A stretch of DNA of 64,000 nt from a virus. Shown here one piece after another: positions 1,172 to 63,726 of this stretch. The translations under genes and the position numbers were made by a program. The notes below the pieces were generated by a model that was not told the origin of the DNA, made no database searches, and saw only the letters and a list, made by a program, of their open reading frames with translations. Each line of letters opens with the position of its first letter. The stretch's first letter is position 1. The DNA lies in the IMG/VR virus record IMGVR_UViG_3300016665_000824, positions 1-64,000 of that record. The stretch is one strand, 5' to 3'.

Positions 1172-1216
1172 TTTGTGGCAATATTGACGCAATCTTGCTA
1201 TAATATTGCCACAAAA
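1172..1216. promoter_or_regulatory. perfect 15-bp inverted repeat (TTTTGTGGCAATATT / AATATTGCCACAAAA) with 16-nt spacer containing a TATAAT hexamer; operator-like or terminator hairpin
   Basis: read directly in the intergenic gap between ORFs ending 1169 and starting 1233; arms contain the TTTGTGG/CCACAAA motif seen at other control regions. Confidence 0.5.
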
Positions 1217-5705: not shown

Positions 5706-5960
5706 ATGGCTAGTTACATTGTGTCCGTCGGCTCCAATAAGGAGCTAATCGTTCGCGCTCGTAATGCGGATCACGCAAACGAGAAGGCAGAATTGCGTCT
5801 TCTCCGTAGTGGCGATCGCTTAAACCCTGTACTCCCCCATCTAACTCGCAGGGTGTCCGAAGTCGAAGCCTTCAAGCTTCAGGTGTCAGGATACCTCGAC
5901 GACGTTGCCGAGGAAATCGAGGATCTTCTCGACGAAATCGGAGGTGAGTACGCATGGTAG
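5706..5960 (+). CDS. hypothetical protein
   Basis: ORF; AGGAG about 9 nt upstream of ATG. Confidence 0.55.
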   Translation: MASYIVSVGSNKELIVRARNADHANEKAELRLLRSGDRLNPVLPHLTRRVSEVEAFKLQVSGYLDDVAEEIEDLLDEIGGEYAW

Positions 5961-6166
5961 TCGCCACCATGTCAGATCGCGCCGCCCTCTTGGTTGGCGA
6001 TGTCTCCGACAGAGTCCTAAGTCAACTTCGACTCTACGGACTAGCGCCACAAGTCCAACAGGATTTGTGGGGATATAGACGCGAGTTTGTGGTAATATTG
6101 AACGATTCAGATCGGAAAGCCGCCTTTGCGATCGCCTGCAATAATCTCAAAATCCAAGTCAAATAA
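5954..6166 (+). CDS. hypothetical protein
   Basis: ORF overlapping previous stop by 7 nt. Confidence 0.5.
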   Translation: MVVATMSDRAALLVGDVSDRVLSQLRLYGLAPQVQQDLWGYRREFVVILNDSDRKAAFAIACNNLKIQVK

Positions 6167-12785: not shown

Positions 12786-12832
12786 CCCTCGTGCTGCCTG
12801 CGAACAGCGTTAGCGATCGCCTATCAAACAAC

Positions 12833-13017: not shown

Positions 13018-13043
13018 TGGCGATCGCCTTGCCTTGTAAACCA

Positions 13044-16748: not shown

Positions 16749-16864
16749 ATGAATTGACTTTTGAGCGCGATCGCTGCCATAATACTCCCACAAACTTATG
16801 TTAAATCGAATATTACTGGCAGGCGATCGCCTTAGCCTTGCTTTGAAAAACTTAGGAGAATCTT

Positions 16865-17071
16865 GTGAATTGGCAACCAATTGATACAGCCCCACAGGAC
16901 GGGAGTGACGTACTTGTTTACGACGGGTACGATGTCCACAAAGCCAAATACGAAGAAGGGCGTGGCTGGATGGAGTCGTCCTTCGATCAGAGCTACGCCC
17001 AAGACTTATTTCACGATCCGATACTTTGGATGTCTATCTCGGATCTGTTAAAACTTCTGGAGCATCTTTAA
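16865..17071 (+). CDS. hypothetical small protein
   Basis: GTG start after AGGAG. Confidence 0.5.
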   Translation: MNWQPIDTAPQDGSDVLVYDGYDVHKAKYEEGRGWMESSFDQSYAQDLFHDPILWMSISDLLKLLEHL

Positions 17072-22323: not shown

Positions 22324-22363
22324 AATACGTCACAGATCTAATTAGATCTGTGACGTATTTTTG
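22324..22363 (+). terminator. strong intrinsic terminator: 36-nt perfect palindrome (16-bp stem) followed by a T5 run
   Basis: AATACGTCACAGATCTAATTAGATCTGTGACGTATT + TTTT read directly. Confidence 0.75.
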
Positions 22364-22397
22364 TGGTAGTATTAATTCAAAGAATTTTCAAAAACCT

Positions 22398-36472: not shown

Positions 36473-36715
36473 TTAGGAAGCCTTGAGACCCTCCAATACG
36501 ATCTGAGATTCTTCGAGCATCTGACGATCGCCTGTTCGCTGGCAGATATAAAAATAGCTGTCAGCATCATAATCATATAAACGCCGCTTGATCGTATAAG
36601 ACTTATTGGCGTACAAAATCCTTGTTCCTAGTTGGTATTTGGGAATTCCAATCGCGTAGCTTGCACTTTTTGCTGTCATATTGTGTTCGTGGGGATATCG
36701 CCACAAATCTACCAC
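36473..36715 (-). CDS. hypothetical small protein (80 aa; 68 aa if ATG 36679 is used)
   Basis: GTG start lies inside the CCACAAA motif pair; internal ATG may be the real start. Confidence 0.45.
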   Translation of the reverse strand: MVDLWRYPHEHNMTAKSASYAIGIPKYQLGTRILYANKSYTIKRRLYDYDADSYFYICQRTGDRQMLEESQIVLEGLKAS

Positions 36716-36718
36716 AAA
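36701..36718. promoter_or_regulatory. CCACAAA-N4-CCACAAA direct-repeat motif (operator candidate)
   Basis: same architecture at 59935-59952 and, reverse-complemented, at 63679-63696. Confidence 0.5.
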
Positions 36719-36787
36719 AATAGGTTAAAATAATTTATTCGCCGCAGCGTTGTAGCGCTCGGCGTGTGAATCACCAACCATAACTTA

Positions 36788-37321
36788 GTGACTACACATA
36801 TGATACGAGCAATTCGTGCAATCGTCGAGCTTGATGATTTTTCTTTCGATGCGTACCAAATGCCAGACGGTGAAAAGCGCATTGGGTTTTTGGGAGCTTC
36901 CAACGTTTTAGGCTATGCTGACAACTGGTTGGGCAGGTTACATAAAGGCGATTCTCGGCAGCTAAAGGCTATACAGGGTATGGGTTATAGCGGCTTACAA
37001 ACCGAGGTCGAAATCATTCAACGGGGTAGGGAGATTAGCGCCTACGGGACTCGTGCAAATACTATCTCTCTTCGGGATTTTATTAAACTTGTAACTTATG
37101 AGGCTATCAAGAAAACAAATACCCGCGCAATTACTATTCTTGCCTCAATGGCTGAGTTTGGTTTTGAGCAAGTCATTGACATGGCTTTTGCTGGCAACCC
37201 AATGGATGAAATCCTTTCAAAGATCGTTCACTTTAGTCTATGGACTCAAGAAGAATGGGAGCAAGCTTTGGCGGATAACAGGGAAGACTTAGCTAATTTG
37301 CGACTTGGGATGTGGCGATAA
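36788..37321 (+). CDS. opposite-strand moron gene inside tail module; hypothetical protein (177 aa)
   Basis: only + strand gene within the 35-kb minus operon; bracketed by bidirectional terminator and the CCACAAA motif region; start GTG 36788 or ATG 36800. Confidence 0.6.
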   Translation: MTTHMIRAIRAIVELDDFSFDAYQMPDGEKRIGFLGASNVLGYADNWLGRLHKGDSRQLKAIQGMGYSGLQTEVEIIQRGREISAYGTRANTISLRDFIKLVTYEAIKKTNTRAITILASMAEFGFEQVIDMAFAGNPMDEILSKIVHFSLWTQEEWEQALADNREDLANLRLGMWR

Positions 37322-37351
37322 GGTAACAAGGACTTGAGTCCTTGTTACCTT
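37320..37351. terminator. bidirectional terminator hairpin (14-bp stem) between convergent moron and tape-measure genes
   Basis: AAGGTAACAAGGAC ttga GTCCTTGTTACCTT; both stop codons lie in or at the stem. Confidence 0.65.
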
Positions 37352-40300
37352 ACTCCGCTAGTAACACCCGCTACTCGTCTCAAGACATTATTAAGCGTGT
37401 CATTAACAGCCTTCTGGACATCATTGCCCACACCCGCCGCAGAACTAATGTTGCTTTGAGTATTGATAGCGATCGGGGCATTAACCGTAATATTTCCACT
37501 TGTACCCAGAGCCGCACCCGTAGGATTGCCCTGTTGCTGAGGAACAAGATCTTTACCGCCAAGACTACCGAAAGCCTGCGCCAATGCCTCCGCTCTTTGA
37601 AGTTGTCCTTCGTCAAGCAAGGCGATCGGCTTGTCGAGTTTCTTCTGGGCTTCCTCAAATGCCTTGTCGTCGATCTTCAATGTCACGGGGTTCTCGGAGA
37701 TTTGCTTCGACACACGGTTAAATTCCGCTTCCAGTCCTGCGGTTAAATCTTTAACCTTGAGATCTGGGGCAACCAACACCTTGGAGAAGCCTTCATCGAT
37801 TTGCTGAGTTAACTTGTCGAACGAAGACGCGATCGCCTGTTCTGGCTTTGCTTCCTCCGTAGGTTTGCCACCGTACTTAGCGTTAAGCTCCTCAAACGAG
37901 TTGGCTTGAGCAGGATACTTCTTGTTAAGCTCCTCAAAGCTGCCTGCCATGCCCTTGTCGGGATATTTCTTGGCTAACTCCTCAAAGCTAGTAGCGAACG
38001 GTGCGTTATCAGGCTTTGGTTCGGGTGCAGCCGTAAATACTCCGCCCTGCTCAACCTGCCCAAGCAATGCCGAGGTGGGGTTCTTAAACGAAGCACCGCG
38101 AACATTAACAGGTTGGCTTGCCGCAGCCACAGCATTACTTACATCCGTGGTAGTCAATGCTGCTGTACCCGTATTTTGAGTTAAGCGAGCAAGCTGCTCT
38201 CGTTGTAGGCGCTCTTGCAGCGCAGGATCTCTAGTTGCGCCAATAACATCGCCGATCGCCGTATTAGTTTCGCCTTGCTGTTTATTGGCAAGAGCTTGAC
38301 GATCATTCTTGTTGACAATCTCGTTAACCTTGGCTTCGTCGGCAATGAAACCCTTTTCTTGCTGCAATCCACCCAATTCAAGAAAGTTCTTCTCCTGTCC
38401 AAGCTTGGCTTGAGCAAGTTTAAGCTTCGCCTCTTCGGACTGGGGACGTAGTTTAACCTCCAACTCGGCGGCTTTGATAGCAGCATCCTGTGAGGCAATG
38501 TCCACCTTCTTCTTGGCGATCGCGATTTCATTTTCGACCTTCTTGCGTTCAAGCAATAGGTCACGCTTCTGGATTTCCCGCTCCAAGGACTCGGCTTCAA
38601 ACTTTTGCTGTTGCTTGAGGGAATTAAGCTTAAGAACGGCAAGTTTTTCCGCAAGAATCAGCTTTTTCTCTTCGAGTTCGAGATCGGCAAAGTTGCCCTG
38701 ACCACCTGCGGCACGGATGGCAGCTTGTTGGCGATCGTAGATCTTGTTGAGAGCAGCAAACTCTGACTCGCGTAATGCCACTGTAGACTGGGCAAGTTTA
38801 TTTGCCGACTCGGATAGGCGGCTTTGATTCTCAAGCCCCTTTTCTAGTGCGGTGAATAATAGTTTTTGACGTTCAAGCTTGAGGTTTTGCTGCTCAATCG
38901 TGACCGCATACTTTTGTGATTCCAAGACTAGGCGATCGCGCACTGCGGAAACTAATCCTTCAATCGCCGCGAGTTCGGCTTCAGCGAGCTGTTTGGATAG
39001 TTCAGCAACCTTGATTAGATTAGCGTTCTTAGTTTCCTTGCTAACACCAACGCCCTTCTTCTCAAGATCGGCGATCGCCTTCTGCTTTTGTTGTTCGAGT
39101 TGCAGCTCTAAAGTGATACTGCGTTTACGTTCGGCAGTTTCTTGAAGCTTAATTTCAGATTCAAGCTTAATTCCCGACTTGCGGAGTTGAGCTATCTGAG
39201 CAAGACGCTGAGTCTCGCCAACCTTTTCGGCGGCAAGGGTCTCCTTAATCTGTGCATCCAATCCCTTAACAAAGCGCTCGGAACGGGCTTTGGCTATTTT
39301 TGCCTCAGCGTCCTTCCGTTTGTTGTCGGCATCCTCTTCTAATCGCGCTTTCTGGGCGGCGGTAGCCTTAACTAGATCAAGCTCTTTTTTGTTTGCGTCA
39401 GCAATAGAGTTTTTCGCCAAGTTTTGACGTTCGGCATCTGGCTTTGCGATTGAGGAAAGTTGATCCCTCTTTGTCTGCAACGTCCGAAGTTCAGACTCTT
39501 TCTTGGCGATCGCGTCCTGTTCCGCCTTGATCTGTGCGGTGTACTCCGAGGAATTAAAAAATGGCGCGTCTTTTACGGTGTTGAATCGCTGTAATGTCTC
39601 CGCATTCCCAGCTTTCAGACTAGACAAGGCTTTTTCCCCATCTTCAATCTGCTTCGTAATTCCCTCTAGCTGTCCCTGAGTATCCTCTGACAACTTTAAG
39701 GTGCTATCCAAGGTTCCTTTCTGGCTCTGGAGGCTATTAAGTCTTGATTGCAACACAGCAAGCTCGTCCGTTACTTTCTTAACGTCCTCGGCAGCGTTAT
39801 CTCCCGCAACACCCGTACTTATAGACTCTTGGAGAGCCTTCTTCCTTGCCTCTGCATCTTTGATCTGTTGACTGGTATCGTCGATCTTTCCTTGCAAGAC
39901 AGGAGCTTGAGCTTCCCTGACCTGCCGTATCTTTGAAGGATCTCCAGTTGCAGCAGCTAACTGCGCTTCCGCCAACTCGCGATCGCGCTTAATCTGTTGT
40001 TTCTGCTCATTAGCGTTGGTCTCCAAGATCTGCTGTCTTGCTCTTAGAGCCTTTTGATCGGCTTCAGACTGGGCTTGAATCTTCTTCTCCTCTAATTGTC
40101 CAGAGAGGGCGATCGATTCAGACTCAGAGATTCGCCCCGTGGCGAGCAAAGCTTGAATCTGGGAAAGTTGAGCGTCATAAATAGCTATGCGGCGATCCGC
40201 CTCCTTTTTGTACGCGGCAGTAATCGCTTCTTGAGCCTTTATCTGTAAATCGCGATCGGCAGAGACATTCGTAGCTACTTTTTGAAACGCTCCCGCAACT

Positions 40301-43300
40301 TCGTCTGCACGGAGAATCCCTGCATCTTGAAGGGCGTTAGCCGTTTCAAGCAACTCGCCCAACTTCGCCTTAAATAGCGCAGGATCTCCCGCAGACTTGT
40401 TTAAAGCGTCAAGGGCTGCATTATATTTTGAAGTTGCCTGCTCGATCGCATTACCAATACGAGGAAGATCAATAGCCTGAATTTGCAGGTTTACCGACTT
40501 GTAGGATTCTTGAAGTTTTCTAAGGGCTTCAAGTTCTCGATCTCTTTCTGCGTCTAAACCTTCTACAGCTTGAACCTGATTAATGATTGCCTCGATATTG
40601 TTGTTTCTTTCGGCGATCTCCTTCTTCTTATTCTCGATCTGAATATCAAAACGCGCAGCACCATCTTTGTCGCTTAGCGCTTCCGCCTTGGACTTTTCCT
40701 GCTCTAATTTAATTAAATCCTCTTGGAGTTTCTTCTGAGCAGACAGTCCTATTCCTAGATCAACCCGCCGAGAAGCTGACTGATTTAAGACGTTTTTATT
40801 ATCTTGCAATCTTATTTGGACGGCTTTCTCTTCAAGATTTCCTGCGCGATCGCCTAGACCTAACTTGTCGGAAGCGCCAAACGTTACCGTTCTTAGCCCC
40901 TCTCTTGCCGCGTCACCTGTAAGAGCAAAACCTTCTGTAACGCGAGTACCAATATTGTCTCTCTCTTTTTTAACCTTCTCCCTCAACGCGTCTTCGGAGT
41001 TGGTTGGTTTGCTTTGTAATCCCCTCAACTCTTTGAGTTTTGCGAGCTGTTGATCATACAGCTTTAAAGTGGGGTCATCTTGGAGGATGCTCTTGTCTTG
41101 GATTGAGGCAACATATTTTTCGCGTTCTGAGGTTAGGTTTGCTAGCTCAGAAGCGGCATCCTTTCCTTGCGATTTGTTTAGGATCGCAACCCTTGCGTCA
41201 CTATCTTTGAGCGCATCGTTGAGTTTGTCTACATTGGCTGTAGCTGCTTTTGTTTCCTGATCGACGTAGCCAACCAAGGTTGTTATTGCGGCGAAAGCTG
41301 CGCTTAACAATAATGTAGGACCAATTTCTGCGGCGAGGGCGGCGAAGGATTTGCTGATACCTTTGACATTCTCGGAAATAAACGAGGTAGCGCCTACAGC
41401 ACCCTTTTTGAGGTTTGAATAAAGTCCACCGACACTAACGTTCGCGTTTTGAGTGAAATCAGCAAAGCTAGACTTAGCTCGCGAGCCAAAATCTTTGACA
41501 CCAGAAAGAGCATCTTGGAAACCTGTCTTTAACCCAGCACCTAAATTTTTGAGGCTTAAATCGGGGAGAGAAATAGACTTGACTTGATTGACAAACTTAT
41601 CTATAGCGATACGAGAATTAGCCAAAGAAGCGGGAATATTTAGCTCTCTAAAGAACTTATCGAGTCCCAGTCTCGCGTTTGCAAGAGAGGTAGGGACGTT
41701 GATCTGGGAAAATGCTTTTTCAACCCCGTTGCGGAGGTTTACCAGCGAGGCAGGAATGTTGATATTTGCAAAGGCGTTCCGAATGCTAGCTTTAGTATTC
41801 TCAATTTGCGCGGGGAGATTTGCAAAGATACCAGTTTTTTGACTCGAATCCTGACTGAACCTTCCCTTAATGTCAGATATAAAACTACCAATAGAGTCGC
41901 CCAAGGACTTCAAAGAAGTTTTTGTCTTTGTGGCGATCGCTCCAATATCTTCTGCGAACTGTTTTGTGAACGGGACGGGAATTGGATTGGCAATAATCTG
42001 ACTTCGGAGCGACTTGATTCTGTCGGTAGTCTCCTGATAACTTTTAAGAGCCGCCGCACGAGCTTCGGGGGTTAACGACAGATCTGTAGAGTCTTTTTGG
42101 CTCACGATCGCCTGCTGTTTTAGTCCAGAGACCTCTCGTTTAGCGGCGACAACCTGAGTAGGATTTAGAGTCGTTGACTGAACTGGCTTGCCCCCAAGTA
42201 TTTCTCGAACACTATCGTTTAGCTTCTTGATGCGCCCAAAGGTTTCGCCAATACTGGCTCCAGCACCGCTAATTCCCGTGTTAATTGTCTTAAATACATT
42301 GGAGATTGTGCCACCAAACAGCTTGGTAACAGCGATCGCGATTAGCAATCCGCCAACTACTTTTTGAAAAGGATTGGAGTTCTCGCCAAAAGTAAAGAAC
42401 GGCAATATCGTGTCTGCAACCACCTTAATTACTGGTGCTAATACCGACCCTACCGTATCCGCAAACTTACGAATAGCTGCGGTTACATCCTGAATGATTT
42501 TTTGTAGACCTTTGTTCTTCAGGATTAACTGATCGAAGAAGACAAAACCAACAAATGTTCCAGCACCCAACAAGGCTGTTGATACGGCAAAAGACCTTGC
42601 CGCAGCTCCTGCCGCTTTTAATGAATTAGAGAAGATGCTGTTTACTTTCTCGGTATTTGTAGCGACATCGGCAAACTTGCCCAAGCTCTTGGCTGCGTCC
42701 GCAATCAACGGGCTAAACGAGCCAAATAGTTGGGACTTACCAACAATGCCTGAGAAAGCTGTTAAGGCGATCGGCGCTGCCTTCGTAAATCCTTGCAGTG
42801 CGGTTCCTAGCGCAGGAAATGCTTGAGTAAGTCCAATCAGTTTTACCCCAAAGCCACCTAGTGTTGGCAAAGCGGCAGTTATAACTCCCGCGAATGGCGA
42901 GAACGCACCGAGAACTTTGCCCAACTCTTTTTGGACTAAGCCAGCAGCACCAGGGATCTTGTTTAGATTCTCCGCCAACAACAGGAATCCAGCAGACCCT
43001 CGACCGACAACCGAACTTAAATTAGCAAAAGTGTTGACAACCCCGTTAGTACGCTTGTCAAGCAGGAAGAGAACTTCTCCCAAACCTGGTACAAGATTAA
43101 ACATCAACGAGAAGCCTTTGTTTAATGCCCCGATCGCGCCCGAAAGAACTTTTGCGCCGACGGAGATGCCGATCCAAATCCCTCCAAGAGGACCTACAAC
43201 ACCTGCAATTTGTTCAAACACATTAATAGCTGGCTGAACAACAGCAAGAGTAAGGCTCATCGCATCGGAAAAAGCCTTTACTGCGCCAGCGAGAGACTTG

Positions 43301-45780
43301 AATAGGTATTCTGGAACCTGCCCAAAGATCTGGAAGAATGGCCCCGCGAGACTTTTTAGGGTCGCAATCACGTTCTTGAATACGTCAAACAGTATTCCTG
43401 CGAGACTCCCTACTTGAGCAGCGATCGCGTCTTTATTCTTTGAGAAATACTGGTAAAACCCGTCAAGTTCCGCTACTAAAGGTGCGAGGAATTTCTCCCC
43501 AGCGAGTCTGCCGATCTCATCAACTAGCTCTTGAATATTGCTAACAATCCCACCCACGGACTGAGCAGCTAGCTTGTTTCCAGACTTAAATGCTTCTAAT
43601 CGACCTAAAAGCTCTTTGACGAAGGTTCCTTGAGACTTCCACTTAGCCACCATCTCATTGTTGAGGTTAAGCGATTTGGCAAGAGCTGAGTTTTGGTCAA
43701 TAGTTCCCGAAGTTATACTAACAACCTCTTGACGGGCTTGATATAAAGGTATGCCAAGCGTTCCGAGTGCGGCGGCGAACGAGGTTGTAATATTAGCAGC
43801 GTCATTCAAGGACGCGCCAATGTTGCTTGCCTGCCCAGCAACGATCTGAAAAACCCCGACAAGATCTTTACTGGTTACGCCGACCAGCTCTAACGAGTCT
43901 TTACGAATTTTATCGATCGCCCCTTCAACCGCAGGGCCAACCGCCTTGATCGCTTGAGTTGGATCTGATACGCGATCGCCATTAACTACGATTCTATTGG
44001 TTGCCGCTAAGCTCGCCTGAGTAGAGAGTAGTTGCTCTTGGAGCCTGATGTTTTGCCCAATCAACAGATCGAAAGGGCCGTTTTGTACAAATCCTTGGAG
44101 TGCCTGCAATCCCAATCCCAAGAAAGCAAGTCTCTGAGATACTTCAAAGATCGCGTTGGTTGCCTTGCCAGCACCTTCGCTAATTAGATTGAATACTTCT
44201 AGTGGTTCCGTCGCCCCCGCCACTGGAGCAACCACTGCGGCGGCAATATCTACAGGTTCTTGCAGCTTCGGGGCTATCTCTTGAGTCTTTTGAAACCCCT
44301 TAACGATAACATCATCAACACTATCGATGACAGTACCGACTTCGGCAAGGATTGTTGATCTCAGTCCATCAACAAAATTCTTACCTGCGATCGCGCCAGT
44401 ATCTTTTAAAAGCGAACTAAATGTTCCGCCAAAAAACTCGTCAATCTTGGTTGCAAGTTTTTGCAGTGAGCCATCCCCGCTTCCGATAGAATCAATCGCC
44501 GCGCCCAACCCTCCGTCAATAGCATCGACAGCTTTTAGGGCTAAATTCCTGAGAGGCGCAAGGATGCTAGTATCTTCTACGCTAAACAAGCTATTGAGAG
44601 CCTGTCCAACGCCTCCCTTTTGAGTCTCTATTAAAGGGCGGAGGATGGCAAAAGCGGATCTTAAATCCTCTGGAATTGCTTTTTCTAGTCCATTAAATAA
44701 CTGTCCAGACAACGCATTTCCAAAATCTTGCAACTCATTAGAGGCAACAATCGACCCCAAATTTGCCACCCCGATCTTGTTGGCAATCAGTTTTGCTAGT
44801 GGTGGTAGTGGCAACTTATCTACAAGCTGAGGGATTCGCCCCGCTAGGCGGTTGATCAGCTCAGATACAGAGCCGCCTAACTGTTCGTCAAGAATTTTAA
44901 ATTGATCGGTCGCCTCAGATCTGCTGCCGACGATTGCCCTGCCGACCGATCCTCCTAAAGCGCTAGATAAGCGCCCTACAACTCTTTGTCCGTCCTCAAC
45001 GTTTGGCGCGATTGCGTTAACGGCAAAAGCTTTAGCAGCACCCGATACCGACCCACCAGCCAACTGCTTCGACACTTCCGACAGCAATCCAGTTTTTGCC
45101 GCAGTCCGAAATGAGTTGGCGACAATTGAGGTTAAATCCGCCCCGAAAGCTTGGTTAACAATACCTTTTAAAGCGTCGGGGAGTCCTCCCCCAACAACGC
45201 CCGAAATGAGTGAGTCGGCGATCGCGTTATCTAGCGTTCCAGTAAAAGCCTCAACTCCCACTCCAAGCTTGCGCTGAATTTCTTGATTTAGCTTTGAAGC
45301 CCTAACATTTGCTTCTAACGCTTTACCGAAACTGTTTGCAGAATCGCTAAGTATCTGCGTAATTCTCTTGCCGTTATCCGAAAATATTGCAGACTGAGCT
45401 TGCTCTGCCGACTGCTTAGATAAGAATCCTCCTCCGACATCTTTTCCTGCAGAGGTAATCCCCTTGATTACCTTTGAGAGCGGAGCTAGTTTTGAAACTG
45501 CACTGTCGGCGACATTCGAGATCTGTTCTAAAAATATTTTGCCCGACTGCGTATCTAGTACATCTCGAACCGACTGAATTGCGTCTCTCAGCCCTCCAAA
45601 CGTGCCAATCGCGGTTGCCCCTACCGTGCTGATCGTTCCGCCAAGGGCTTGTACAGATCCCTTTGTTACGTCCGCAACAACACCAACACTTTTTAGACCA
45701 GCAGCTATCTCCGAAACTTGTTTGCTTGCTTGATCTTTCGCCTGTATTAAGATCTCAACAATATTGGTTTGCGGAGCCAT
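37345..45780 (-). CDS. tape measure protein (2811 aa)
   Basis: giant ORF with Gly/Ala-rich hydrophobic N-terminal half and ~1000-aa coiled-coil (Q/E/K/A-rich) half, upstream of baseplate/fibre genes. Confidence 0.75.
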   Translation of the reverse strand: MAPQTNIVEILIQAKDQASKQVSEIAAGLKSVGVVADVTKGSVQALGGTISTVGATAIGTFGGLRDAIQSVRDVLDTQSGKIFLEQISNVADSAVSKLAPLSKVIKGITSAGKDVGGGFLSKQSAEQAQSAIFSDNGKRITQILSDSANSFGKALEANVRASKLNQEIQRKLGVGVEAFTGTLDNAIADSLISGVVGGGLPDALKGIVNQAFGADLTSIVANSFRTAAKTGLLSEVSKQLAGGSVSGAAKAFAVNAIAPNVEDGQRVVGRLSSALGGSVGRAIVGSRSEATDQFKILDEQLGGSVSELINRLAGRIPQLVDKLPLPPLAKLIANKIGVANLGSIVASNELQDFGNALSGQLFNGLEKAIPEDLRSAFAILRPLIETQKGGVGQALNSLFSVEDTSILAPLRNLALKAVDAIDGGLGAAIDSIGSGDGSLQKLATKIDEFFGGTFSSLLKDTGAIAGKNFVDGLRSTILAEVGTVIDSVDDVIVKGFQKTQEIAPKLQEPVDIAAAVVAPVAGATEPLEVFNLISEGAGKATNAIFEVSQRLAFLGLGLQALQGFVQNGPFDLLIGQNIRLQEQLLSTQASLAATNRIVVNGDRVSDPTQAIKAVGPAVEGAIDKIRKDSLELVGVTSKDLVGVFQIVAGQASNIGASLNDAANITTSFAAALGTLGIPLYQARQEVVSITSGTIDQNSALAKSLNLNNEMVAKWKSQGTFVKELLGRLEAFKSGNKLAAQSVGGIVSNIQELVDEIGRLAGEKFLAPLVAELDGFYQYFSKNKDAIAAQVGSLAGILFDVFKNVIATLKSLAGPFFQIFGQVPEYLFKSLAGAVKAFSDAMSLTLAVVQPAINVFEQIAGVVGPLGGIWIGISVGAKVLSGAIGALNKGFSLMFNLVPGLGEVLFLLDKRTNGVVNTFANLSSVVGRGSAGFLLLAENLNKIPGAAGLVQKELGKVLGAFSPFAGVITAALPTLGGFGVKLIGLTQAFPALGTALQGFTKAAPIALTAFSGIVGKSQLFGSFSPLIADAAKSLGKFADVATNTEKVNSIFSNSLKAAGAAARSFAVSTALLGAGTFVGFVFFDQLILKNKGLQKIIQDVTAAIRKFADTVGSVLAPVIKVVADTILPFFTFGENSNPFQKVVGGLLIAIAVTKLFGGTISNVFKTINTGISGAGASIGETFGRIKKLNDSVREILGGKPVQSTTLNPTQVVAAKREVSGLKQQAIVSQKDSTDLSLTPEARAAALKSYQETTDRIKSLRSQIIANPIPVPFTKQFAEDIGAIATKTKTSLKSLGDSIGSFISDIKGRFSQDSSQKTGIFANLPAQIENTKASIRNAFANINIPASLVNLRNGVEKAFSQINVPTSLANARLGLDKFFRELNIPASLANSRIAIDKFVNQVKSISLPDLSLKNLGAGLKTGFQDALSGVKDFGSRAKSSFADFTQNANVSVGGLYSNLKKGAVGATSFISENVKGISKSFAALAAEIGPTLLLSAAFAAITTLVGYVDQETKAATANVDKLNDALKDSDARVAILNKSQGKDAASELANLTSEREKYVASIQDKSILQDDPTLKLYDQQLAKLKELRGLQSKPTNSEDALREKVKKERDNIGTRVTEGFALTGDAAREGLRTVTFGASDKLGLGDRAGNLEEKAVQIRLQDNKNVLNQSASRRVDLGIGLSAQKKLQEDLIKLEQEKSKAEALSDKDGAARFDIQIENKKKEIAERNNNIEAIINQVQAVEGLDAERDRELEALRKLQESYKSVNLQIQAIDLPRIGNAIEQATSKYNAALDALNKSAGDPALFKAKLGELLETANALQDAGILRADEVAGAFQKVATNVSADRDLQIKAQEAITAAYKKEADRRIAIYDAQLSQIQALLATGRISESESIALSGQLEEKKIQAQSEADQKALRARQQILETNANEQKQQIKRDRELAEAQLAAATGDPSKIRQVREAQAPVLQGKIDDTSQQIKDAEARKKALQESISTGVAGDNAAEDVKKVTDELAVLQSRLNSLQSQKGTLDSTLKLSEDTQGQLEGITKQIEDGEKALSSLKAGNAETLQRFNTVKDAPFFNSSEYTAQIKAEQDAIAKKESELRTLQTKRDQLSSIAKPDAERQNLAKNSIADANKKELDLVKATAAQKARLEEDADNKRKDAEAKIAKARSERFVKGLDAQIKETLAAEKVGETQRLAQIAQLRKSGIKLESEIKLQETAERKRSITLELQLEQQKQKAIADLEKKGVGVSKETKNANLIKVAELSKQLAEAELAAIEGLVSAVRDRLVLESQKYAVTIEQQNLKLERQKLLFTALEKGLENQSRLSESANKLAQSTVALRESEFAALNKIYDRQQAAIRAAGGQGNFADLELEEKKLILAEKLAVLKLNSLKQQQKFEAESLEREIQKRDLLLERKKVENEIAIAKKKVDIASQDAAIKAAELEVKLRPQSEEAKLKLAQAKLGQEKNFLELGGLQQEKGFIADEAKVNEIVNKNDRQALANKQQGETNTAIGDVIGATRDPALQERLQREQLARLTQNTGTAALTTTDVSNAVAAASQPVNVRGASFKNPTSALLGQVEQGGVFTAAPEPKPDNAPFATSFEELAKKYPDKGMAGSFEELNKKYPAQANSFEELNAKYGGKPTEEAKPEQAIASSFDKLTQQIDEGFSKVLVAPDLKVKDLTAGLEAEFNRVSKQISENPVTLKIDDKAFEEAQKKLDKPIALLDEGQLQRAEALAQAFGSLGGKDLVPQQQGNPTGAALGTSGNITVNAPIAINTQSNISSAAGVGNDVQKAVNDTLNNVLRRVAGVTSGVR
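37840..37995 (-). repeat. three tandem ~45-nt repeats encoding SFEEL-x-KKYP inside the tape measure gene
   Basis: GCTCCTCAAA recurs three times on + strand; protein repeats SFEELAKKYP / SFEELNKKYP / SFEELNAKYG. Confidence 0.6.
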
Positions 45781-58336: not shown

Positions 58337-59827
58337 CTATTTTCTAGTGGAACGAGCTAAGGGTTTGGAGTAGTTCTTGCCGTAGCGCTCGTTATTGCGT
58401 TCTGCGGCATCCTTCTTCTCCTCGGAATCTTTACGCTCAGTGCGACCAACCTTTACGGCGGTCTCTAGGCGATCTGCGTAGCTAGGCGCAGGAACAAGAG
58501 TTGCGTACTCAGCCGCGCTATCGAAACGGGCTTCGATGTAGCTATCGTTGCGATCGCTTAAATCAACTTCAGGATGAATAGCCTTCAGTGCAGCGCGACG
58601 AATCTCGGTGGAGTCCATCGTGGTTTCGATACCTGCATCCTCGATGTTGATACCCTTAGAGGTAAGAAGGTCGTGAGCCTTGCCAATTGCATCGAGGCGA
58701 TCGGCAGTCTGGCGATTGATTTCTTCAGCGAGGAATTCACGGACTTCATCGGAGTCAAGAACGACTGCCAACTCAGAAGAGTCCATCTTCTTGCCCTTCT
58801 TCATCTTTTTCTTGATGAAGTCAGGCATCTTGCTTTCACCCTCGGATTCCTCATCGTCAGGCTCGCCTTCGCCGTCTTCCTTGTCACCACAAGAAGCATC
58901 CTGACGGATAGTTTCGAGTTGAGTTAGGGTTTCGGTTAGCTCATCTTCAAGAGCGTCAGCACGACCCTTGGTGCGATTAACTTCGGAAGTAAGGTCGGCG
59001 ATCGCGTCAGCCTTCTCTTTGAGTTCAGCCTCAAGAGAATCCACGCGAGACTTATATTTAGATAGTTCTTCGAGTTTTTGCGACAGGGGGTAGAGCGCGA
59101 TGTCCTCCACCTGAAACTCGCCAGCGCCATCCACGCGCAATGTTTTTGTTTTCAAATCGGACATAGCGGAGCTACCCTCATTTTTAATTGTTGGAATAAC
59201 GACAACGCTGTTCGGAGCAGAGGCTTTAACTTGGATCGAGTCAAAGCGAACTAGCTCAACAACCTCATCCCCATCGGCATCGGCACTATCGAGGTGCATC
59301 CTCACAGTGCTCCCCCCGCGTGGGTTGTCAGTTGCGGCGCAATGGTCTGGTCGAATCTTGGTTTGAACACGGTCAAAATCGCCCCGATAGGTGATCTGGT
59401 CGATCGCGTCGAACCATTCGCCATTCGGGGCTTCTACGATTTCGCATTCATATCCAAGAGAAAGACCGTTCTTTTTGCCTGCCTTTACGGACTGGGCAAA
59501 ATCGGGGTTAGAGATTCGGGCAATATTCTGTACAACCCCCTCGTTATCGTTGTACTCACCCGCCCTTGTTAATTCACCAACAGCGCTATCTCGTTTTCCC
59601 CGCAATAGCGAAGATGGATGCTCGACAGTCATCGGCAATCCTTTTAGGGACTCAAGGAAATCGCGATCGCGGTTTGCCGAAGCAGGTCGCAATTCACGAA
59701 CTCGCTTTCCGTCACCTCGAAAGTATGTCAATATGCCGTCTCGACAAACCGTGCTGTACGCATACAGCCCGTCCGCACGTTCTTCAGTGCGGGTCGCGAA
59801 ACTTACGTCATCAAAACGAAATGCCAT
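58337..59827 (-). CDS. putative prohead protease / scaffolding fusion protein (496 aa)
   Basis: globular N-terminal ~190 aa, then acidic coiled-coil region (EELSKYKSRVDSLEAELKEK..., DKEDGEGEPDDEESEGE); first gene of the operon. Confidence 0.55.
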   Translation of the reverse strand: MAFRFDDVSFATRTEERADGLYAYSTVCRDGILTYFRGDGKRVRELRPASANRDRDFLESLKGLPMTVEHPSSLLRGKRDSAVGELTRAGEYNDNEGVVQNIARISNPDFAQSVKAGKKNGLSLGYECEIVEAPNGEWFDAIDQITYRGDFDRVQTKIRPDHCAATDNPRGGSTVRMHLDSADADGDEVVELVRFDSIQVKASAPNSVVVIPTIKNEGSSAMSDLKTKTLRVDGAGEFQVEDIALYPLSQKLEELSKYKSRVDSLEAELKEKADAIADLTSEVNRTKGRADALEDELTETLTQLETIRQDASCGDKEDGEGEPDDEESEGESKMPDFIKKKMKKGKKMDSSELAVVLDSDEVREFLAEEINRQTADRLDAIGKAHDLLTSKGINIEDAGIETTMDSTEIRRAALKAIHPEVDLSDRNDSYIEARFDSAAEYATLVPAPSYADRLETAVKVGRTERKDSEEKKDAAERNNERYGKNYSKPLARSTRK

Positions 59828-59934
59828 TGGCTAATTCAACTTAGGTCAATGGCATTACTTTCTTGTTTTGTCAAGATGAATATTCGGTTTTATGGAAATT
59901 AGCGATCGCTTTTCTTTAAATACGCTCAATACCG

Positions 59935-59952
59935 CCACAAATCCACCACAAA
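59935..59952. promoter_or_regulatory. CCACAAA-N4-CCACAAA motif in divergent control region
   Basis: CCACAAATCCACCACAAA between the virion operon start (59827) and + strand regulator (59991). Confidence 0.5.
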
Positions 59953-59990
59953 GCCACGTTTCAATGCGAAAATCCGAGTAGAGTTACCAG

Positions 59991-60554
59991 TTGAATATGG
60001 CAGTAAAAAGTAAAGTCAAGCTCGGCGCGTATATCGGGCGAAGGCTGGAGCAGGAACGTACCGATGCCGATTACGGTCAGCAAGAAGTCATTAATGAGAT
60101 CCACAGAATAACGTCATCCCCAGAAGTTATTGCTGCGCTAGAGATATCTGTCGCCGCAAACCTAACCAAGTTTCGAGAGTTTCGAGGCAAACGCCAGAAA
60201 GATTTAGCCGCAGATCTAAACAACTTGCGCGATACCTTGCATGGCGTAGGTATAGATACTGAAGTGTCTGGCGATGTGTCTTGGATGTCTAAGGTTGAGA
60301 ATAGCGATCGCATCATGCAGGCGGTCGAACTACGACTCTTTAGCCTTGCTTTGGGTGTTCCGATGGAGGCATTTTTCCCTAATGAGTTAAACGTACTAGC
60401 AGAAAGTAATGACCCGTTCGCCCCTTACCGATATCTGGGACGCAGTATCGAGGGTATTCAAAAGTATCGACATGTCAGCGATCGCAACAAAATTGCGATC
60501 GTTTATTGTTCAGAAGGGTTGTCTTTACCTGATGGTGTGGGGAAATATCTATGA
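59991..60554 (+). CDS. putative HTH (XRE-like) DNA-binding regulator (187 aa)
   Basis: divergent from virion operon; segment LTKFREFRGKRQKDLAADLNNLRDTL resembles an XRE-type helix-turn-helix; start TTG 59991 or ATG 59997. Confidence 0.5.
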   Translation: MNMAVKSKVKLGAYIGRRLEQERTDADYGQQEVINEIHRITSSPEVIAALEISVAANLTKFREFRGKRQKDLAADLNNLRDTLHGVGIDTEVSGDVSWMSKVENSDRIMQAVELRLFSLALGVPMEAFFPNELNVLAESNDPFAPYRYLGRSIEGIQKYRHVSDRNKIAIVYCSEGLSLPDGVGKYL

Positions 60555-60812: not shown

Positions 60813-62786
60813 ATGTCCTATGAAGCCCTGCCGTCGGGAAGCTTAGTCAAAGCTCCCATCGATCTGATCGAAACTCATCCACAGAACCCCGCCCCTACAT
60901 CACAGAGGTATAGCGAAATATTGGGGTATCCCGTCAGGGTTGAGGATGCTCAGGTCGAGTCCCTGATTGAACTACTAAGGGCGGAGGGCTACAACCCCAA
61001 TAAGCCTATGCTGCTCAGACCAGTTGGCGATCGCCTCCAAGCCGTTGAGGGCAACCACCGTTTTGTGGCAATGTGGATGCTCACCAAGGTACTCAGAGAG
61101 TTTGAACAGGACTATATTCCCGCGATCGTGGATGAAGATCTATCCGAAGAGGACGCTCTGATTAAGTTGAGTACTCTTAATACTCAGCGCAGGATGGAGG
61201 GTTGGCGGTTAGCTCGATTGGCTTACTACACTTGCGTTGAGAAAGGCATGTCTCAGCCTGAGTATGCGGCAAAGGTGGGATACGTCCTTGAGGGTGGAAA
61301 GCCAAATGGTCCACGGATTTCTAAGTTGATTCAAGCCTGTCGATTTGTTGACTATATTGCTGCCAACTCACCGATTGAAGAACTGCAAGACGTTGAGGCT
61401 TTAACCGAACCTAAGAACGGTTTGTTTAGGTCAGTTGATCGCGTCGTTGAGTTTATGTACCTCGACCAAGAGGACTGGTTATGGATTGCAGAGTTCTACC
61501 TCCGTCATCACATGCAGATCTCGGCAAAACAACGAGTCAACCTAGCCAAGGCGATCAAAGATACAAAGGATTTGCTCAACAGATCTACCTCGTATCCCGA
61601 TCGCTGGAGTCAATGGTTGCGCTGGGAGTATATACGCGGAGAGGTCGCTAGTCAGTGTGCGGCAAACGAGGAGTCCCAATTAGCCAAGAGTTTATTACCC
61701 CAACTAATTTCTGAGGCGAATAAAACCTACGAGTCGGACGACTTGCCATTCATTCACAACTATCACGAAGTTACTGGTAACAGGGTTGAAGAGAAAACTG
61801 CCAATCTCAAGGAGGAATTTCGTGCTGAGTTAATCAAGCAGATCGAAGGGCGTAGTGCCAAGTTTTACAGGCTTGTTGATGTTGCTGAAGCTGCGCGGAC
61901 TGTGATCGATCGCTATGCGTTTATCGATCAGAAGTACGAAAACTTCAAAAAGATCGAAAACACGGTACATATCGAGCAAGAGATTGTTGCGATCGCACCT
62001 CCGACGACCTCAAAGTCAAAATCTACGCCAACAACATCTACGCGATCGCCTGTTGCAGAAACAAAGCCCAAGCTTGATACCGAAAAGCGAGTGTGGATTG
62101 AGGAACAATATCAGCCAAAAGGCATGGTTTCTTCTCTAGAAGATTATGCTTTCCACGGCGGCAAACAGTACGGGCTGATATTCTCCCGTCTTGGCAATAG
62201 CGGCATGGAGGACTTCTTTCAAAATACCGACTATATCTATAGAACGCTTACCGAAGATGGAGTATTCGCACTGATATTGCCGCATAAATATTCCTTCGCG
62301 GTAATTGAGGAGCTTGAGTATAAGGTAGCTAACTCTAGTCGCTTACACCTTCGAGGGTTGGATGGCGGCATATATTCCGATGATGAAAAGCCGAGATTGG
62401 CGATCGCCGCATCAAACCGTACATTGATTCATCAAGAGTACGAAGAATTATTATTGTTCACCACTCAAGACGATACTCCTCTGCCATTGCGATCGCCTCT
62501 CCCTCGGATGGCGCTGGAGCCAGTTCACGATATTCTGACCGCTTTTGGCGACCTGAGCGAGCCGTTCTTAGATCCGTTCGCCTTCAGTGGTGAGGTCGTA
62601 GTCGCAGCAAAAAGTCTTGGGTATCGGTGCGACTATCTCGTACAGACTCCAAACCAGTTGGACTTGGTTACGCGCTGGTGCGATCGGACTGAGTTTCCTG
62701 AGAGTCTACTTAGATTTGCGGAAGAGTTTACTCATTTTGATGAGGCACTGTTTAGTGATCGAGCAACTACTCGTGCAAGATCCTGA
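60813..62786 (+). CDS. ParB-like N-terminal domain protein with C-terminal degenerate N6/N4 DNA methyltransferase-like motif (657 aa)
   Basis: N-terminus ...LLRPVGDRLQAVEGNHRFVAM (ParB/Srx-like); C-terminus FLDPFAFSGEVVVAAKSLGYR resembles MTase motif I with G to A/F changes; no clean DPPY. Confidence 0.6.
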   Translation: MSYEALPSGSLVKAPIDLIETHPQNPAPTSQRYSEILGYPVRVEDAQVESLIELLRAEGYNPNKPMLLRPVGDRLQAVEGNHRFVAMWMLTKVLREFEQDYIPAIVDEDLSEEDALIKLSTLNTQRRMEGWRLARLAYYTCVEKGMSQPEYAAKVGYVLEGGKPNGPRISKLIQACRFVDYIAANSPIEELQDVEALTEPKNGLFRSVDRVVEFMYLDQEDWLWIAEFYLRHHMQISAKQRVNLAKAIKDTKDLLNRSTSYPDRWSQWLRWEYIRGEVASQCAANEESQLAKSLLPQLISEANKTYESDDLPFIHNYHEVTGNRVEEKTANLKEEFRAELIKQIEGRSAKFYRLVDVAEAARTVIDRYAFIDQKYENFKKIENTVHIEQEIVAIAPPTTSKSKSTPTTSTRSPVAETKPKLDTEKRVWIEEQYQPKGMVSSLEDYAFHGGKQYGLIFSRLGNSGMEDFFQNTDYIYRTLTEDGVFALILPHKYSFAVIEELEYKVANSSRLHLRGLDGGIYSDDEKPRLAIAASNRTLIHQEYEELLLFTTQDDTPLPLRSPLPRMALEPVHDILTAFGDLSEPFLDPFAFSGEVVVAAKSLGYRCDYLVQTPNQLDLVTRWCDRTEFPESLLRFAEEFTHFDEALFSDRATTRARS

Positions 62787-62823
62787 TCGGTTAAGCGTGG
62801 GTAGCCACGACGCTTGTTCAAGG

Positions 62824-62862
62824 CAATAAAAAAGGAGTCCAATTGAGACTCCTTTTTTATTG
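62824..62862. terminator. bidirectional terminator (16-bp perfect stem with A6/T6 tracts) between convergent genes
   Basis: CAATAAAAAAGGAGTC caattga GACTCCTTTTTTATTG. Confidence 0.7.
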
Positions 62863-63595: not shown

Positions 63596-63678
63596 ATAAT
63601 CTACCTTTTCTAGGTTATGTGTTACGCGATCGCACCTTCAAAAACTTGCGATCGCTATCCTTAATATTATACCTTGAT

Positions 63679-63696
63679 CTTGTGGCGATTTTGTGG
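63679..63696. promoter_or_regulatory. TTGTGG-N4-TTTGTGG motif (reverse-complement form of the CCACAAA pair) upstream of the final partial gene
   Basis: CTTGTGGCGATTTTGTGG in the gap between the Rha-like gene and ORF starting 63727. Confidence 0.45.
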
Positions 63697-63726
63697 GAGT
63701 ATTAATAAACGTCACAGGAATTTTTT

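What the first reader, a model, noticed from the sequence alone, without database searches (positions are those of the whole stretch)
36701..36718. Recurring CCACAAA-N4-CCACAAA motif at three control regions (candidate operator)
The same architecture occurs at 36701-36718 (between the moron and downstream tail genes), at 59935-59952 (divergent region between the virion operon and the XRE-like regulator) and, reverse-complemented, at 63679-63696 (upstream of the last partial gene). The half-site also forms the arms of the inverted repeat at 1172-1216 and occurs singly near 13041 and 16791. Two half-sites at fixed 4-bp spacing in divergent promoter regions is the signature of a dimeric DNA-binding regulator.
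Basis: seen in the sequence. Interest (0 to 1): 0.65.

Follow-up and report, generated by a model that had tools for sequence, protein, structure and literature searches.

The report
Cyanophage promoter control box with repeated heptad
The repeated CCACAAA motif is real and conserved: it is the core of a 14-base box found in a dozen promoter regions of a 134-kb circular cyanobacterial phage, most likely the docking site of a still unidentified phage regulator that switches divergent promoters.

Summary
CCACAAA-N4-CCACAAA is exact at 36701-36718 and 59935-59952 and has one mismatch at 63679-63696 (minus strand); chance expects none.

I add four points.
- The heptad is part of a 14-mer, AATAYYNCCACAAA. 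It occurs 9 times in the window against 0.22 expected, almost always between genes.
- Two weaker tandem sites lie in the left flank of the same 134-kb circular genome.
- At four of the five tandem sites, the second heptad is followed after exactly 7 nt by a -10-like hexamer, and no -35 element is present. The heptads therefore sit at about -37 to -20 of promoters for stand-alone genes: gene A, the Rha-like gene and two small genes. Site B is the exception.
- On the other strand the box reads TTTGTGG-nAnTAT, which looks like an extended -10 promoter. These point at the virion, tail and early operons.

Related metagenomic phages keep the heptads while the spacers, flanks and even the neighbouring genes change.

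Best reading: this is a lineage-specific regulator site shared by back-to-back promoters, helping one promoter and blocking the other. The binding protein is unidentified. The XRE-like protein B is the best candidate, and Rha is unlikely. I class it as a new member of a known kind, of modest interest.

The parts
36701..36718 (+). Tandem site A: CCACAAA-TCTA-CCACAAA, between the 68-aa gene (36473-36679, -) and gene A (36800-37321, +).
   Evidence: Exact match. Conserved as CCATAAATCTACCACAAA in relative L160, whose upstream flank is different.
36694..36707 (+). 14-mer box of site A, GATATCGCCACAAA (1 mismatch). On the minus strand it reads TTTGTGG-CGATAT, 14 nt before the ATG at 36679.
36726..36731 (+). 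TAAAAT, the -10 hexamer of the gene A promoter, 7 nt after the second heptad.
   Evidence: L160 has the same hexamer at the same spacing. Distant gene-A homologues carry TGGTAAAAT or TGGTAGAAT and no heptads.
59935..59952 (+). Tandem site B: CCACAAA-TCCA-CCACAAA, between the virion operon (protease gene 58337-59827, -) and the XRE-like gene B (59997-60554, +).
   Evidence: Exact match. Both heptads are kept in 7 lineages whose B proteins are 78-96% identical, while the 4-nt spacer and the upstream flank vary.
59928..59941 (+). 14-mer box of site B, AATACCGCCACAAA. On the minus strand it reads TTTGTGG-CGGTAT (TAGTAT in L002 and L010) and points at the virion operon.
59979..59984 (+). TAGAGT, part of the invariant block TAGAGTTACCAG 26 nt after site B. 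It is an alternative -10 for gene B; the hexamer at +7 (TTCAAT, 59960-59965) is poor and variable.
   Evidence: Alignment A3.
63679..63696 (-). Tandem site C: CCACAAA-ATCG-CCACAAG, between the Rha-like gene (62870-63595, -) and the 319-aa gene that starts at 63727 (+).
   Evidence: The site is kept in L001/L003/L009, which lack the 319-aa gene, and in L010, which lacks the Rha gene.
63690..63703 (-). 14-mer box of site C, AATACTCCCACAAA. On the plus strand it reads TTTGTGG-GAGTAT, 23 nt before the ATG at 63727.
63666..63671 (-). TATAAT, the -10 of the Rha-gene promoter, 7 nt after the second heptad (TACAAT in relatives).
1172..1215 (.). Two exact 14-mers in inverted orientation (1172-1185 on -, 1202-1215 on +). 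They enclose a perfect extended -10, TGcTATAAT (1196-1204), in front of the gene at 1233.
   Evidence: The region also folds as an RNA hairpin of -23 kcal/mol, z = -6.
6064..6099 (-). Two boxes 22 bp apart: TATATCCCCACAAA (6064-6077) and AATATTACCACAAA (6086-6099), inside or at the end of ORF 5954-6166. On the plus strand the second reads TTTGTGG-TAATAT.
   Evidence: The homologous box in relative L017 is AATACTACCACAAA.
16781..16794 (+). Single exact 14-mer, AATACTCCCACAAA, 70 nt upstream of the small gene 16865-17071. This segment is missing in relative L016.
22360..22373 (-). Single exact 14-mer, AATACTACCACAAA. On the plus strand it reads TTTGTGG-TAGTAT, directly after a terminator-like hairpin and 24 nt before an ATG.

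Best explanation
The CCACAAA heptad is the recognition unit of a lineage-specific, probably phage-encoded, DNA-binding protein. The sites are built into promoter cores.

Shown:
- The heptad is embedded in the 14-bp asymmetric box AATAYYNCCACAAA, which occurs at about a dozen almost exclusively intergenic places.
- At five control regions (A, B and C in the window; E and F in the left flank) a second heptad follows 11 bp later, one helical turn away.
- At A, C, E and F the second heptad is followed after exactly 7 nt by a -10-like hexamer. There is no -35 element and no TGn.
- On the opposite strand the box reads TTTGTGG-nAnTAT, that is, TGn plus a -10-like hexamer.

Inferred:
- The heptads lie at about -37 to -20 of the 'forward' promoters of stand-alone genes: gene A, the Rha-like gene and two small genes. 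Bound protein there replaces the missing -35 contact and activates these intrinsically weak promoters.
- The same bound protein covers -19 to -13 of oppositely directed extended -10 promoters and shuts them. These promoters face the virion operon, the tail operon, the 319-aa gene and the early array.
- At 1172-1215 two inverted boxes bracket a consensus extended -10 promoter, which suggests pure repression at that site.
- Together this gives a lambda OR-like two-way switch. In a genome with plasmid-type partition genes, it could hold the lytic operons off while keeping regulator and moron genes on.

The binding protein is not identified. The XRE-like protein B, whose gene always sits beside a tandem site, is the leading candidate.
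For: Enrichment:
- Pairs: 2 exact and 1 one-mismatch, against 0.00 expected.
- 14-mer: 9 hits with at most 1 mismatch against 0.22 expected in the window. In 82 kb there are 8 exact against 0.0 expected.
- 9 of 21 heptads lie in the 7.7% of the window that is intergenic.

Geometry:
- The hexamer 7 nt after the second heptad is TAAAAT (A), TATAAT or TACAAT (C), TAATTC or TAATTT (E), and GATATT or TAACAT (F). The background frequency of a hexamer with A at position 2 and T at position 6 is 0.069.
- The consensus scan finds no -35/-10 promoter using these sites in the three regions.

Conservation:
- Site B: both heptads are kept in 7 lineages, while the 4-nt spacer (TCCA, ACCG, ACTG) and the upstream DNA vary. 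In L002 the homology block starts 7 nt before the site.
- Site C survives loss of either neighbouring gene. L010 has no Rha gene; the L001 lineage has no 319-aa gene. Each lineage keeps only the -10 that faces the remaining gene.
- Site A with its TAAAAT is conserved in L160. Distant gene-A homologues have TGGTAAAAT and no heptads, so the heptads are a lineage-specific addition to a promoter that has lost its TG.
- Boxes beside the parA ATG and a Zn-ribbon gene ATG are exactly conserved in L021, although the surrounding region is only 71% identical.

Specificity:
- The composite pattern hits only relatives in IMG/VR.
- Public genomes give only scattered hits.
- There is no Rfam family in these regions.
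Against: - No binding protein is identified. B has no Pfam or PHROG hit, only a weak resemblance to the XRE-type controller protein C.BclI (E = 0.12), and its structure model is unusable (pLDDT 38).
- Site B does not fit the 7-nt rule. Its hexamer (TTCAAT, TTCGGT and similar) is not -10-like, and an invariant TAGAGT lies 26 nt downstream.
- The opposite-strand hexamers at A and B (CGATAT, CGGTAT) lack the key A at position 2.
- At the leftward gene next to site F, a start 7 nt after the hexamer would cut into its Shine-Dalgarno sequence.
- The orientation of single boxes relative to gene direction is not significant (about 7 against 3).
- There are no transcription start data.
- Only 69% of the genome was seen.
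- Activation versus repression is inferred from geometry alone.
Confidence: 0.45

Rival explanations
1. The box is only a promoter consensus. TTTGTGGnAnTATT is the phage's extended -10 promoter class (TRTGn plus hexamer), read by the host sigma-70-type holoenzyme or by a phage sigma-like factor. No separate regulator is involved, and the second heptad is incidental.
For: - On the TTTGTGG strand, TG lies exactly one base before a hexamer with A at position 2 and T at position 6 at 9 of 12 boxes.
- These boxes sit 14-24 nt before start codons at 22360, 36694 and 63690. One follows directly after a terminator hairpin. In L005 one follows directly after the tape-measure gene stop.
- Most single boxes point with the genes, at 6-7 loci against 2-3.
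Against: - The heptad and the TAT triplet are more invariant than the A at position 2 that a -10 element needs. In site B the invariant bases are GTA, not A2 and T6.
- The second heptad, which has no adjacent hexamer on that strand, is as conserved as the first across 7 lineages.
- The L001 lineage keeps both heptads after losing the AATAYY part.
- 16781 and L020 14760 point the wrong way.
- No sigma factor was found in the 92 kb seen. The only hint is one E = 0.003 hit to an ECF-sigma model and an E = 0.04 Sigma70_r4_2 hit on the second HTH of the two-HTH Rep-like protein.
Confidence: 0.22
2. The tandem heptads are a binding site for a host winged-helix response regulator of the OmpR/PhoB type, or another host factor. 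This would tie regulator and moron genes to a host signal, as pho boxes and NtcA sites do in marine cyanophages.
For: Two 7-bp direct repeats with a 4-bp spacer, replacing -35 and lying a few bp upstream of -10, is the classical pho-box layout (from my own knowledge). No phage-encoded reader could be named.
Against: - The sequence matches no cyanobacterial box that I know (Pho box PyTTAAPyPy(T/A), HLR1, NtcA GTA-N8-TAC; recalled, not tested).
- The AATAYY extension and the inverted pair at 1172-1215 are not typical of OmpR-type sites.
- The genome-wide scan of 185,579 species gives hits scattered over all phyla. Four of the 80 listed are cyanobacterial, and none has further heptads nearby.
- Distant homologues of gene A in other HIP1-rich contigs lack the heptads.
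Confidence: 0.12
3. The box is a dispersed asymmetric operator of a pure repressor, in the style of L5 gp71 stoperators or P1 C1. It blocks initiation and elongation wherever it lies, and nothing is activated.
For: - It is a 14-bp asymmetric site with about a dozen copies in promoters and short intergenic spaces.
- An inverted pair brackets a consensus promoter at 1172-1215.
- Boxes lie 3-5 nt from the parA and Zn-ribbon ATGs.
- B is 185 aa with an HTH-like segment. The L5 repressor is 183 aa, binds 13-mers as a monomer, and has more than 20 sites (PMC9283540).
Against: - The strict 7-nt spacing to -10 hexamers that lack both -35 and TG at four independent promoters is not needed for repression and points to activation.
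- The orientation bias is weak.
- B shows no detectable similarity to the solved cluster-A repressor.
Confidence: 0.15
4. The sites are replication iterons, partition sites or recombination junctions, or they are chance matches.
For: - The genome encodes a two-HTH Rep-like protein, ParA and an RHH protein.
- The 97-bp repeats beside parA contain CCACAAT.
- Homology breakpoints between relatives fall at the sites.
Against: - There are never more than two heptads together.
- The sites are scattered over at least 90 kb and always lie at promoters.
- There is a fixed register to -10 hexamers.
- Chance is excluded by the shuffles.
Confidence: 0.05

Closest known systems
Lambda OR / CI (PR-PRM switch) and lambda CII sites (TTGC-N6-TTGC at PRE, PI, PaQ). 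Recalled from my own knowledge.
   Same: Like CII, the repeats are direct, one helical turn apart and straddle the -35 position of several weak promoters that lack a -35 element. Like CI at OR, one bound protein could help one promoter and block the divergent one.
   Different: The sequence is different (CCACAAA with an 11-bp period). There is an extra AATAYY arm. Many sites have a single copy. No CI-like or CII-like protein is detectable, and nothing has been shown experimentally.
Cluster A mycobacteriophage (L5 gp71, TipsytheTRex) repressor operators and stoperators (PMC9283540).
   Same: Both use an asymmetric 13-14-bp site dispersed at many promoter and intergenic positions of one phage genome, and both have a candidate reader of about 185 aa with one HTH.
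   Different: This phage has fewer sites (about 12-14 in 69% of the genome). Tandem heptads sit at a fixed distance from -10 elements. The orientation rule is not demonstrated, and there is no sequence similarity to the repressor.
PhoB pho box (two 7-bp direct repeats plus a 4-bp spacer, replacing -35). Recalled from my own knowledge.
   Same: The layout is the same 7+4+7, placed just upstream of -10 with no -35 element.
   Different: The consensus sequence is different. No winged-helix regulator was found in the phage, and there is no sign of a host regulon in public genomes.
Extended -10 (TGn / TRTGn) promoters.
   Same: On the TTTGTGG strand, TG lies one base before a -10-like hexamer and no -35 element is present.
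   Different: The whole heptad is invariant, far more than RNA polymerase contacts would require, and it is duplicated upstream.

Membership tests
Lambda CII-type activator site | Direct repeats one helical turn apart that flank the -35 position of promoters lacking a -35 element. | tested here: met
   With the +7 hexamer taken as -12 to -7, the heptads lie at -37 to -31 and -26 to -20. No -35 consensus is found.
Lambda CII-type activator site | TTGC-N6-TTGC repeat and a CII-family protein. | tested here: not met
   The repeat is CCACAAA-N4-CCACAAA. No CII-like family appears among the 106 proteins scanned.
PhoB/OmpR-type box | Two 7-bp direct repeats with a 4-bp spacer, just upstream of -10. 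| tested here: met
PhoB/OmpR-type box | Known consensus sequence and a cognate winged-helix response regulator. | tested here: inconclusive
   No Trans_reg_C protein appears in the 92 kb seen. The host genome is unknown. The consensus differs from the recalled Pho box and HLR1 boxes.
L5-type asymmetric operator / stoperator system | An asymmetric 13-14-bp site at many promoter and short intergenic positions. | tested here: met
   14-mer: 12 sites with at most 1 mismatch in 82 kb against 0.5 expected, and 10 of the 12 are intergenic.
L5-type asymmetric operator / stoperator system | Site orientation tied to the direction of transcription. | tested here: inconclusive
   About 7 loci are co-directional and 3 are opposite.
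L5-type asymmetric operator / stoperator system | A homologous two-domain monomeric repressor. | tested here: not met
   A profile of B searched against PDB sequences finds no such repressor. The best hit is C.BclI at E = 0.12.
Extended -10 promoter | TG at -15/-14 and a hexamer with A at position 2 and T at position 6. | tested here: met
   9 of 12 boxes fit. A, B and 6064 have G at position 2.
Extended -10 promoter | Transcripts start 6-8 nt downstream of the hexamer. | not testable with these tools
   No transcriptome data exist for this metagenomic contig.
Plasmid or phage iterons | Three or more tandem repeats clustered at an origin. | tested here: not met
   There are at most two heptads per site, and the sites are dispersed. 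The 97-bp repeats beside parA are a separate feature.

The most novel reading that the evidence does not exclude
A cyanobacterial phage-plasmid uses one master regulator whose 14-bp asymmetric box is also the extended -10 element of its lytic promoters. A single bound protein would then silence the virion, tail and early operons while activating back-to-back regulator and moron promoters. This would be a compact two-way lysis-lysogeny switch of a type not described for cyanophages.
Probability: 0.25. Interest if true: 0.55.

Novelty: new member of a known kind. Interest (0 to 1): 0.36.

Why it matters
Gene regulation in temperate or plasmid-like cyanophages is almost unknown. A short, well-defined box marks about a dozen promoters and three divergent control regions in this phage. 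That gives a concrete way into the circuit, and four uses follow:
- The box can be used to fish out the binding protein.
- It predicts transcription units in a genome where about 90% of genes have no annotation.
- It could serve as a portable regulated promoter part for HIP1-rich cyanobacteria.
- It shows how morons (gene A, the Rha/Bro cassette) are wired into a phage's own control network by acquiring the box.

Tried and rejected
- Near-identical DNA search in GenBank phages found no match.
- Gene A and gene B searches in IMG/VR, JGI metagenomes and GTDB genomes found few or no relatives.
- String searches of the literature for CCACAAA and TTTGTGG returned only primer noise.
- The AlphaFold model of B had pLDDT 38, so no fold search was run.
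- Pfam, PHROG and NCBIfam screens of 106 proteins found no OmpR-like or CII-like regulator and no clear sigma factor.
- phmmer with E. coli RpoE found nothing.
- My first idea was that every site, including 16777-16794, is a tandem site with a -10 at +7. I rejected it for 16777, which is a single 14-mer in another register.
- I tested the idea that AATAYY is a forward -10 with the start inside CCACAAA. It is not supported, because the nnnAAT register lacks A at position 2.
- PaV-LD, which has a gene-A homologue, has no box.
- The Rfam scan was empty.
- The scan of public genomes for the tandem plus -10 pattern gave only scattered, unrelated hits.

Full report
**What the window is**

The window belongs to a phage-like genome with 46.9% G+C. 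It carries 135 copies of the cyanobacterial HIP1 palindrome GCGATCGC, against 1.2 expected, so the host is a cyanobacterium.

Exact-protein look-ups place the window on ENA metagenome contig ERZ27292652 k141_20893, 134,398 bp long. Two look-ups give coordinate offsets that differ by 134,257, which is the contig length minus the 141-bp assembly k-mer. The contig is therefore a circle, and the window runs across its ends.

I assembled 92,261 bp of this genome, 69% of it: the window, 9.6 kb to its right and 18.7 kb to its left.

The gene layout is as follows.
- A long plus-strand array of small, unannotated genes runs from 1 to 24.9 kb.
- A minus-strand virion block runs from 24.9 to 59.8 kb. It includes a head protease, the major head protein and a 2811-aa tape-measure-like protein.
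- Three stand-alone genes lie among these: gene A (36800-37321), the XRE-like gene B (59997-60554) and a Rha-like gene (62870-63595).
- The left flank carries ParA, an RHH protein and a 363-aa two-HTH Rep-like protein.

Known phages are only distantly related: the major head protein is 33% identical to those of Aphanizomenon phage CL131 and Planktothrix phage PaV-LD.

**Checking the observation**

CCACAAA-N4-CCACAAA is exact at 36701-36718 and 59935-59952, against 0.00 expected. The third copy, 63679-63696 on the minus strand, has one mismatch (CCACAAG).

The heptad alone occurs 21 times against 7.6 expected. Nine of the 21 lie in the 7.7% of the window that is intergenic, p about 1e-5.

The copy at 13041 and a look-alike at 19168 belong to A/C-rich leaders that run straight into start codons. 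That is a separate feature of this genome.

**The unit is larger than the heptad**

Aligning all copies shows a 14-mer, AATAYYNCCACAAA.
- The 82 kb then in hand holds 8 exact copies against 0.0 expected, and 12 with at most one mismatch against 0.5 expected.
- The window alone holds 9 with at most one mismatch against 0.22 expected.
- The window sites are 1172 (-), 1202 (+), 6064 (-), 6086 (-), 16781 (+), 22360 (-), 36694 (+), 59928 (+) and 63690 (-).
- Outside these 14 positions there is no information content.

The first heptad of tandem sites A, B and C carries the AATAYY arm. The second heptad is an extra copy 11 bp downstream.

**More tandem sites**

The left flank holds two weaker pairs.
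- Site E is L007 2740-2757 (+): ACATAAAATTGCCACAAA.
- Site F is L007 3192-3209 (-): CCATAAATTTAGCACAAA.

In relative L021, which is 71% identical over this region, both are closer to consensus: ACACAAAATCACCACAAA and CCACAAATGTACCACATA.

**Geometry relative to promoters**

At sites A, C, E and F the second heptad is followed after exactly 7 nt by a -10-like hexamer.

| Site | Hexamer 7 nt after the second heptad |
|---|---|
| A | TAAAAT |
| C | TATAAT (TACAAT in relatives) |
| E | TAATTC (TAATTT in L021) |
| F | GATATT (TAACAT in L021) |

The background frequency of a hexamer with A at position 2 and T at position 6 is 0.069. None of these promoters has a -35 hexamer or a TG upstream. The heptads therefore occupy about -37 to -20, and each points at the gene downstream.

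Site B is the exception. Its +7 hexamer is TTCAAT, TTCAGT, TTCGGT or TTGAGT in different lineages, which is not -10-like. An invariant TAGAGTTACCAG lies 26 nt downstream.

On the opposite strand the 14-mer reads TTTGTGG-nAnTAT-T, that is, TG, one base, then a hexamer. The hexamers are TAGTAT, TAATAT, GAGTAT, CAATAT and CAGTAT, with weaker CGGTAT at B and CGATAT at A.

Read in this orientation, the boxes face the following genes.
- The box at site B faces the virion operon.
- The box at site A faces the 68-aa gene and the tail genes.
- The box at site C faces the 319-aa gene.
- The boxes at 1172, 6086 and 22360 face along the early array. The last follows directly after a terminator hairpin.
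- In relative L005, a box follows directly after the tape-measure gene stop.

At 1172-1215 two inverted boxes enclose a perfect extended -10, TGcTATAAT. The right-hand box overlaps the end of that hexamer and the expected transcription start.

**Conservation in relatives**

- *Site B.* Seven lineages, with B proteins 78-96% identical, keep TAC-NN-CCACAAA-N4-CCAYAAR. The 4-nt spacer and all the upstream DNA vary. L002, L010 and L012 have other genes inserted upstream, and in L002 the homology resumes 7 nt before the site.
- *Site C.* The L001/L003/L009 lineage has no 319-aa gene, and its Rha gene has a Bro-N-like N-terminal domain in place of the Rha domain. It keeps both heptads and TACAAT but has lost the AATAYY arm. 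L010 has no Rha gene at all. It keeps AATACTCCCACAAAAACGCCACAAG in front of the 319-aa gene but has lost the TATAAT. The heptads are therefore common to both divergent promoters, and each -10 persists only where its gene does.
- *Site A.* L160, whose gene A is 78% identical, has CCATAAATCTACCACAAA, then 7 nt, then TAAAAT, with an unrelated upstream flank. Gene-A homologues at 58-61% identity have TGGTAGAAT or TGGTAAAAT and no heptads. TAAAAT is therefore the genuine -10 of gene A. The heptads are a lineage-specific addition to a promoter that has lost its TG.
- *Left-flank boxes.* The boxes 5 nt before the parA ATG and 2-3 nt before a Zn-ribbon gene ATG are exactly conserved in L021.

**Specificity**

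The composite pattern (14-mer plus second heptad) occurs in IMG/VR only in the known relatives. The pattern of tandem heptads plus a -10 gives 18 unrelated viral hits and at least 120 hits in public genomes, scattered over all phyla. Four of the 80 listed genome hits are cyanobacterial. None of the hits resembles this phage, and the four cyanobacterial loci have no further boxes nearby. There is no Rfam family in these regions.

**Who binds**

This is not resolved.
- *B.* It has no family hit and only a weak match of its residues 74-128 to the XRE-type controller protein C.BclI (E = 0.12). JGI labels one homologue as XRE-family. The AlphaFold model is unusable, with pLDDT 38. The only link between B and the site is that the gene and the site always occur together.
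- *Other candidates.* These are the 363-aa two-HTH protein, the 54-aa protein and the Zn-ribbon proteins that flank sites E and F, and the gene A protein.

**Interpretation**

The strong and specific conservation of both heptads, with free spacers, argues for a protein that reads them. The heptads sit at a fixed register to -10 elements, and in the L001 lineage they are kept even where the AATAYY arm is lost.

The strict 7-nt spacing to -10 hexamers that lack both -35 and TG argues for activation of the forward promoters. Overlap with the TGn/-10 zone of the opposite promoters, and the bracketing of the consensus promoter at 1196-1204, argue for repression of those.

I therefore favour a two-way switch element (confidence about 0.45). 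The rivals are a pure promoter consensus (0.22), a pure dispersed repressor operator of the L5 type (0.15; PMC9283540), a host response-regulator box (0.12), and iterons, recombination junctions or chance (0.05).

**Verdict**

This is a new member of a known kind, a phage regulatory box. Interest is modest, but it gives a clean experimental entry point into an otherwise unannotated cyanobacterial phage-plasmid.

Noticed in passing
window 1-64000 (for example 12813-12820, 13020-13027, 16767-16774): There are 135 HIP1 palindromes (GCGATCGC) against 1.2 expected. In the early region they often appear as GGCGATCGCC directly after a stop codon, followed by an A/C-rich leader (CAAAACAA...) that runs into the next ATG. 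Many of these genes have no Shine-Dalgarno sequence.
   Followed up: partly
L006, L007, L020 (flanks of the window on contig ERZ27292652 k141_20893): The contig is a 134,257-bp circle, and the window crosses its ends. The left flank carries ParA, an RHH protein and a 363-aa two-HTH Rep-like protein. This suggests a phage-plasmid lifestyle.
   Followed up: partly
L007 6026-6285: Three direct repeats with a 97-bp period lie in a 1.26-kb non-coding stretch beside parA. Each contains HIP1 and CCCCACAAT. They may be a centromere or an origin.
   Followed up: no
window 36577-37344; L005 7495-9827; L160 3500-4560: The slot between the 2811-aa tape-measure-like gene and the tail genes is variable. This phage has gene A there. 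Relative L005 has IS200/IS605 TnpA and TnpB plus small genes. L160 has gene A plus one of those small genes.
   Followed up: partly
window 62870-63595; L001 179-938; L003 4230-4990: In three relatives the N-terminal Rha domain of the Rha-like regulator is replaced by a Bro-N-like domain, while the C-terminal half stays 93% identical. The L001 copy appears to be frameshifted.
   Followed up: partly
window 59953-59996: The leader of gene B contains blocks that are invariant in 7 lineages (CGTTT, GCGARAATC, TAGAGTTACCAG) and end about 10 nt before the ATG. This could be a second operator, or a -10 for a nearly leaderless mRNA.
   Followed up: partly
window 37345-45780 (-): This ORF is 2811 aa long (2381-2840 aa in relatives) and is coiled-coil rich and tape-measure-like by position. 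That is unusually long and would imply a very long tail. It was not tested against protein families.
   Followed up: no
window 22328-22357 and 62810-62860: There is a perfect 13-bp-stem hairpin with a T-run, ACGTCACAGATCT-AATT-AGATCTGTGACGT, inside the early array. A bidirectional terminator-like hairpin lies between the 657-aa ParB-like/methylase gene and the Rha gene.
   Followed up: no
window 60813-62786 (+): The 657-aa protein has a ParB-like GNHR motif near its N-terminus and looks like a ParB-nuclease/methyltransferase fusion. Pfam gave no hit at E <= 0.01, so this rests on reading the sequence only.
   Followed up: no
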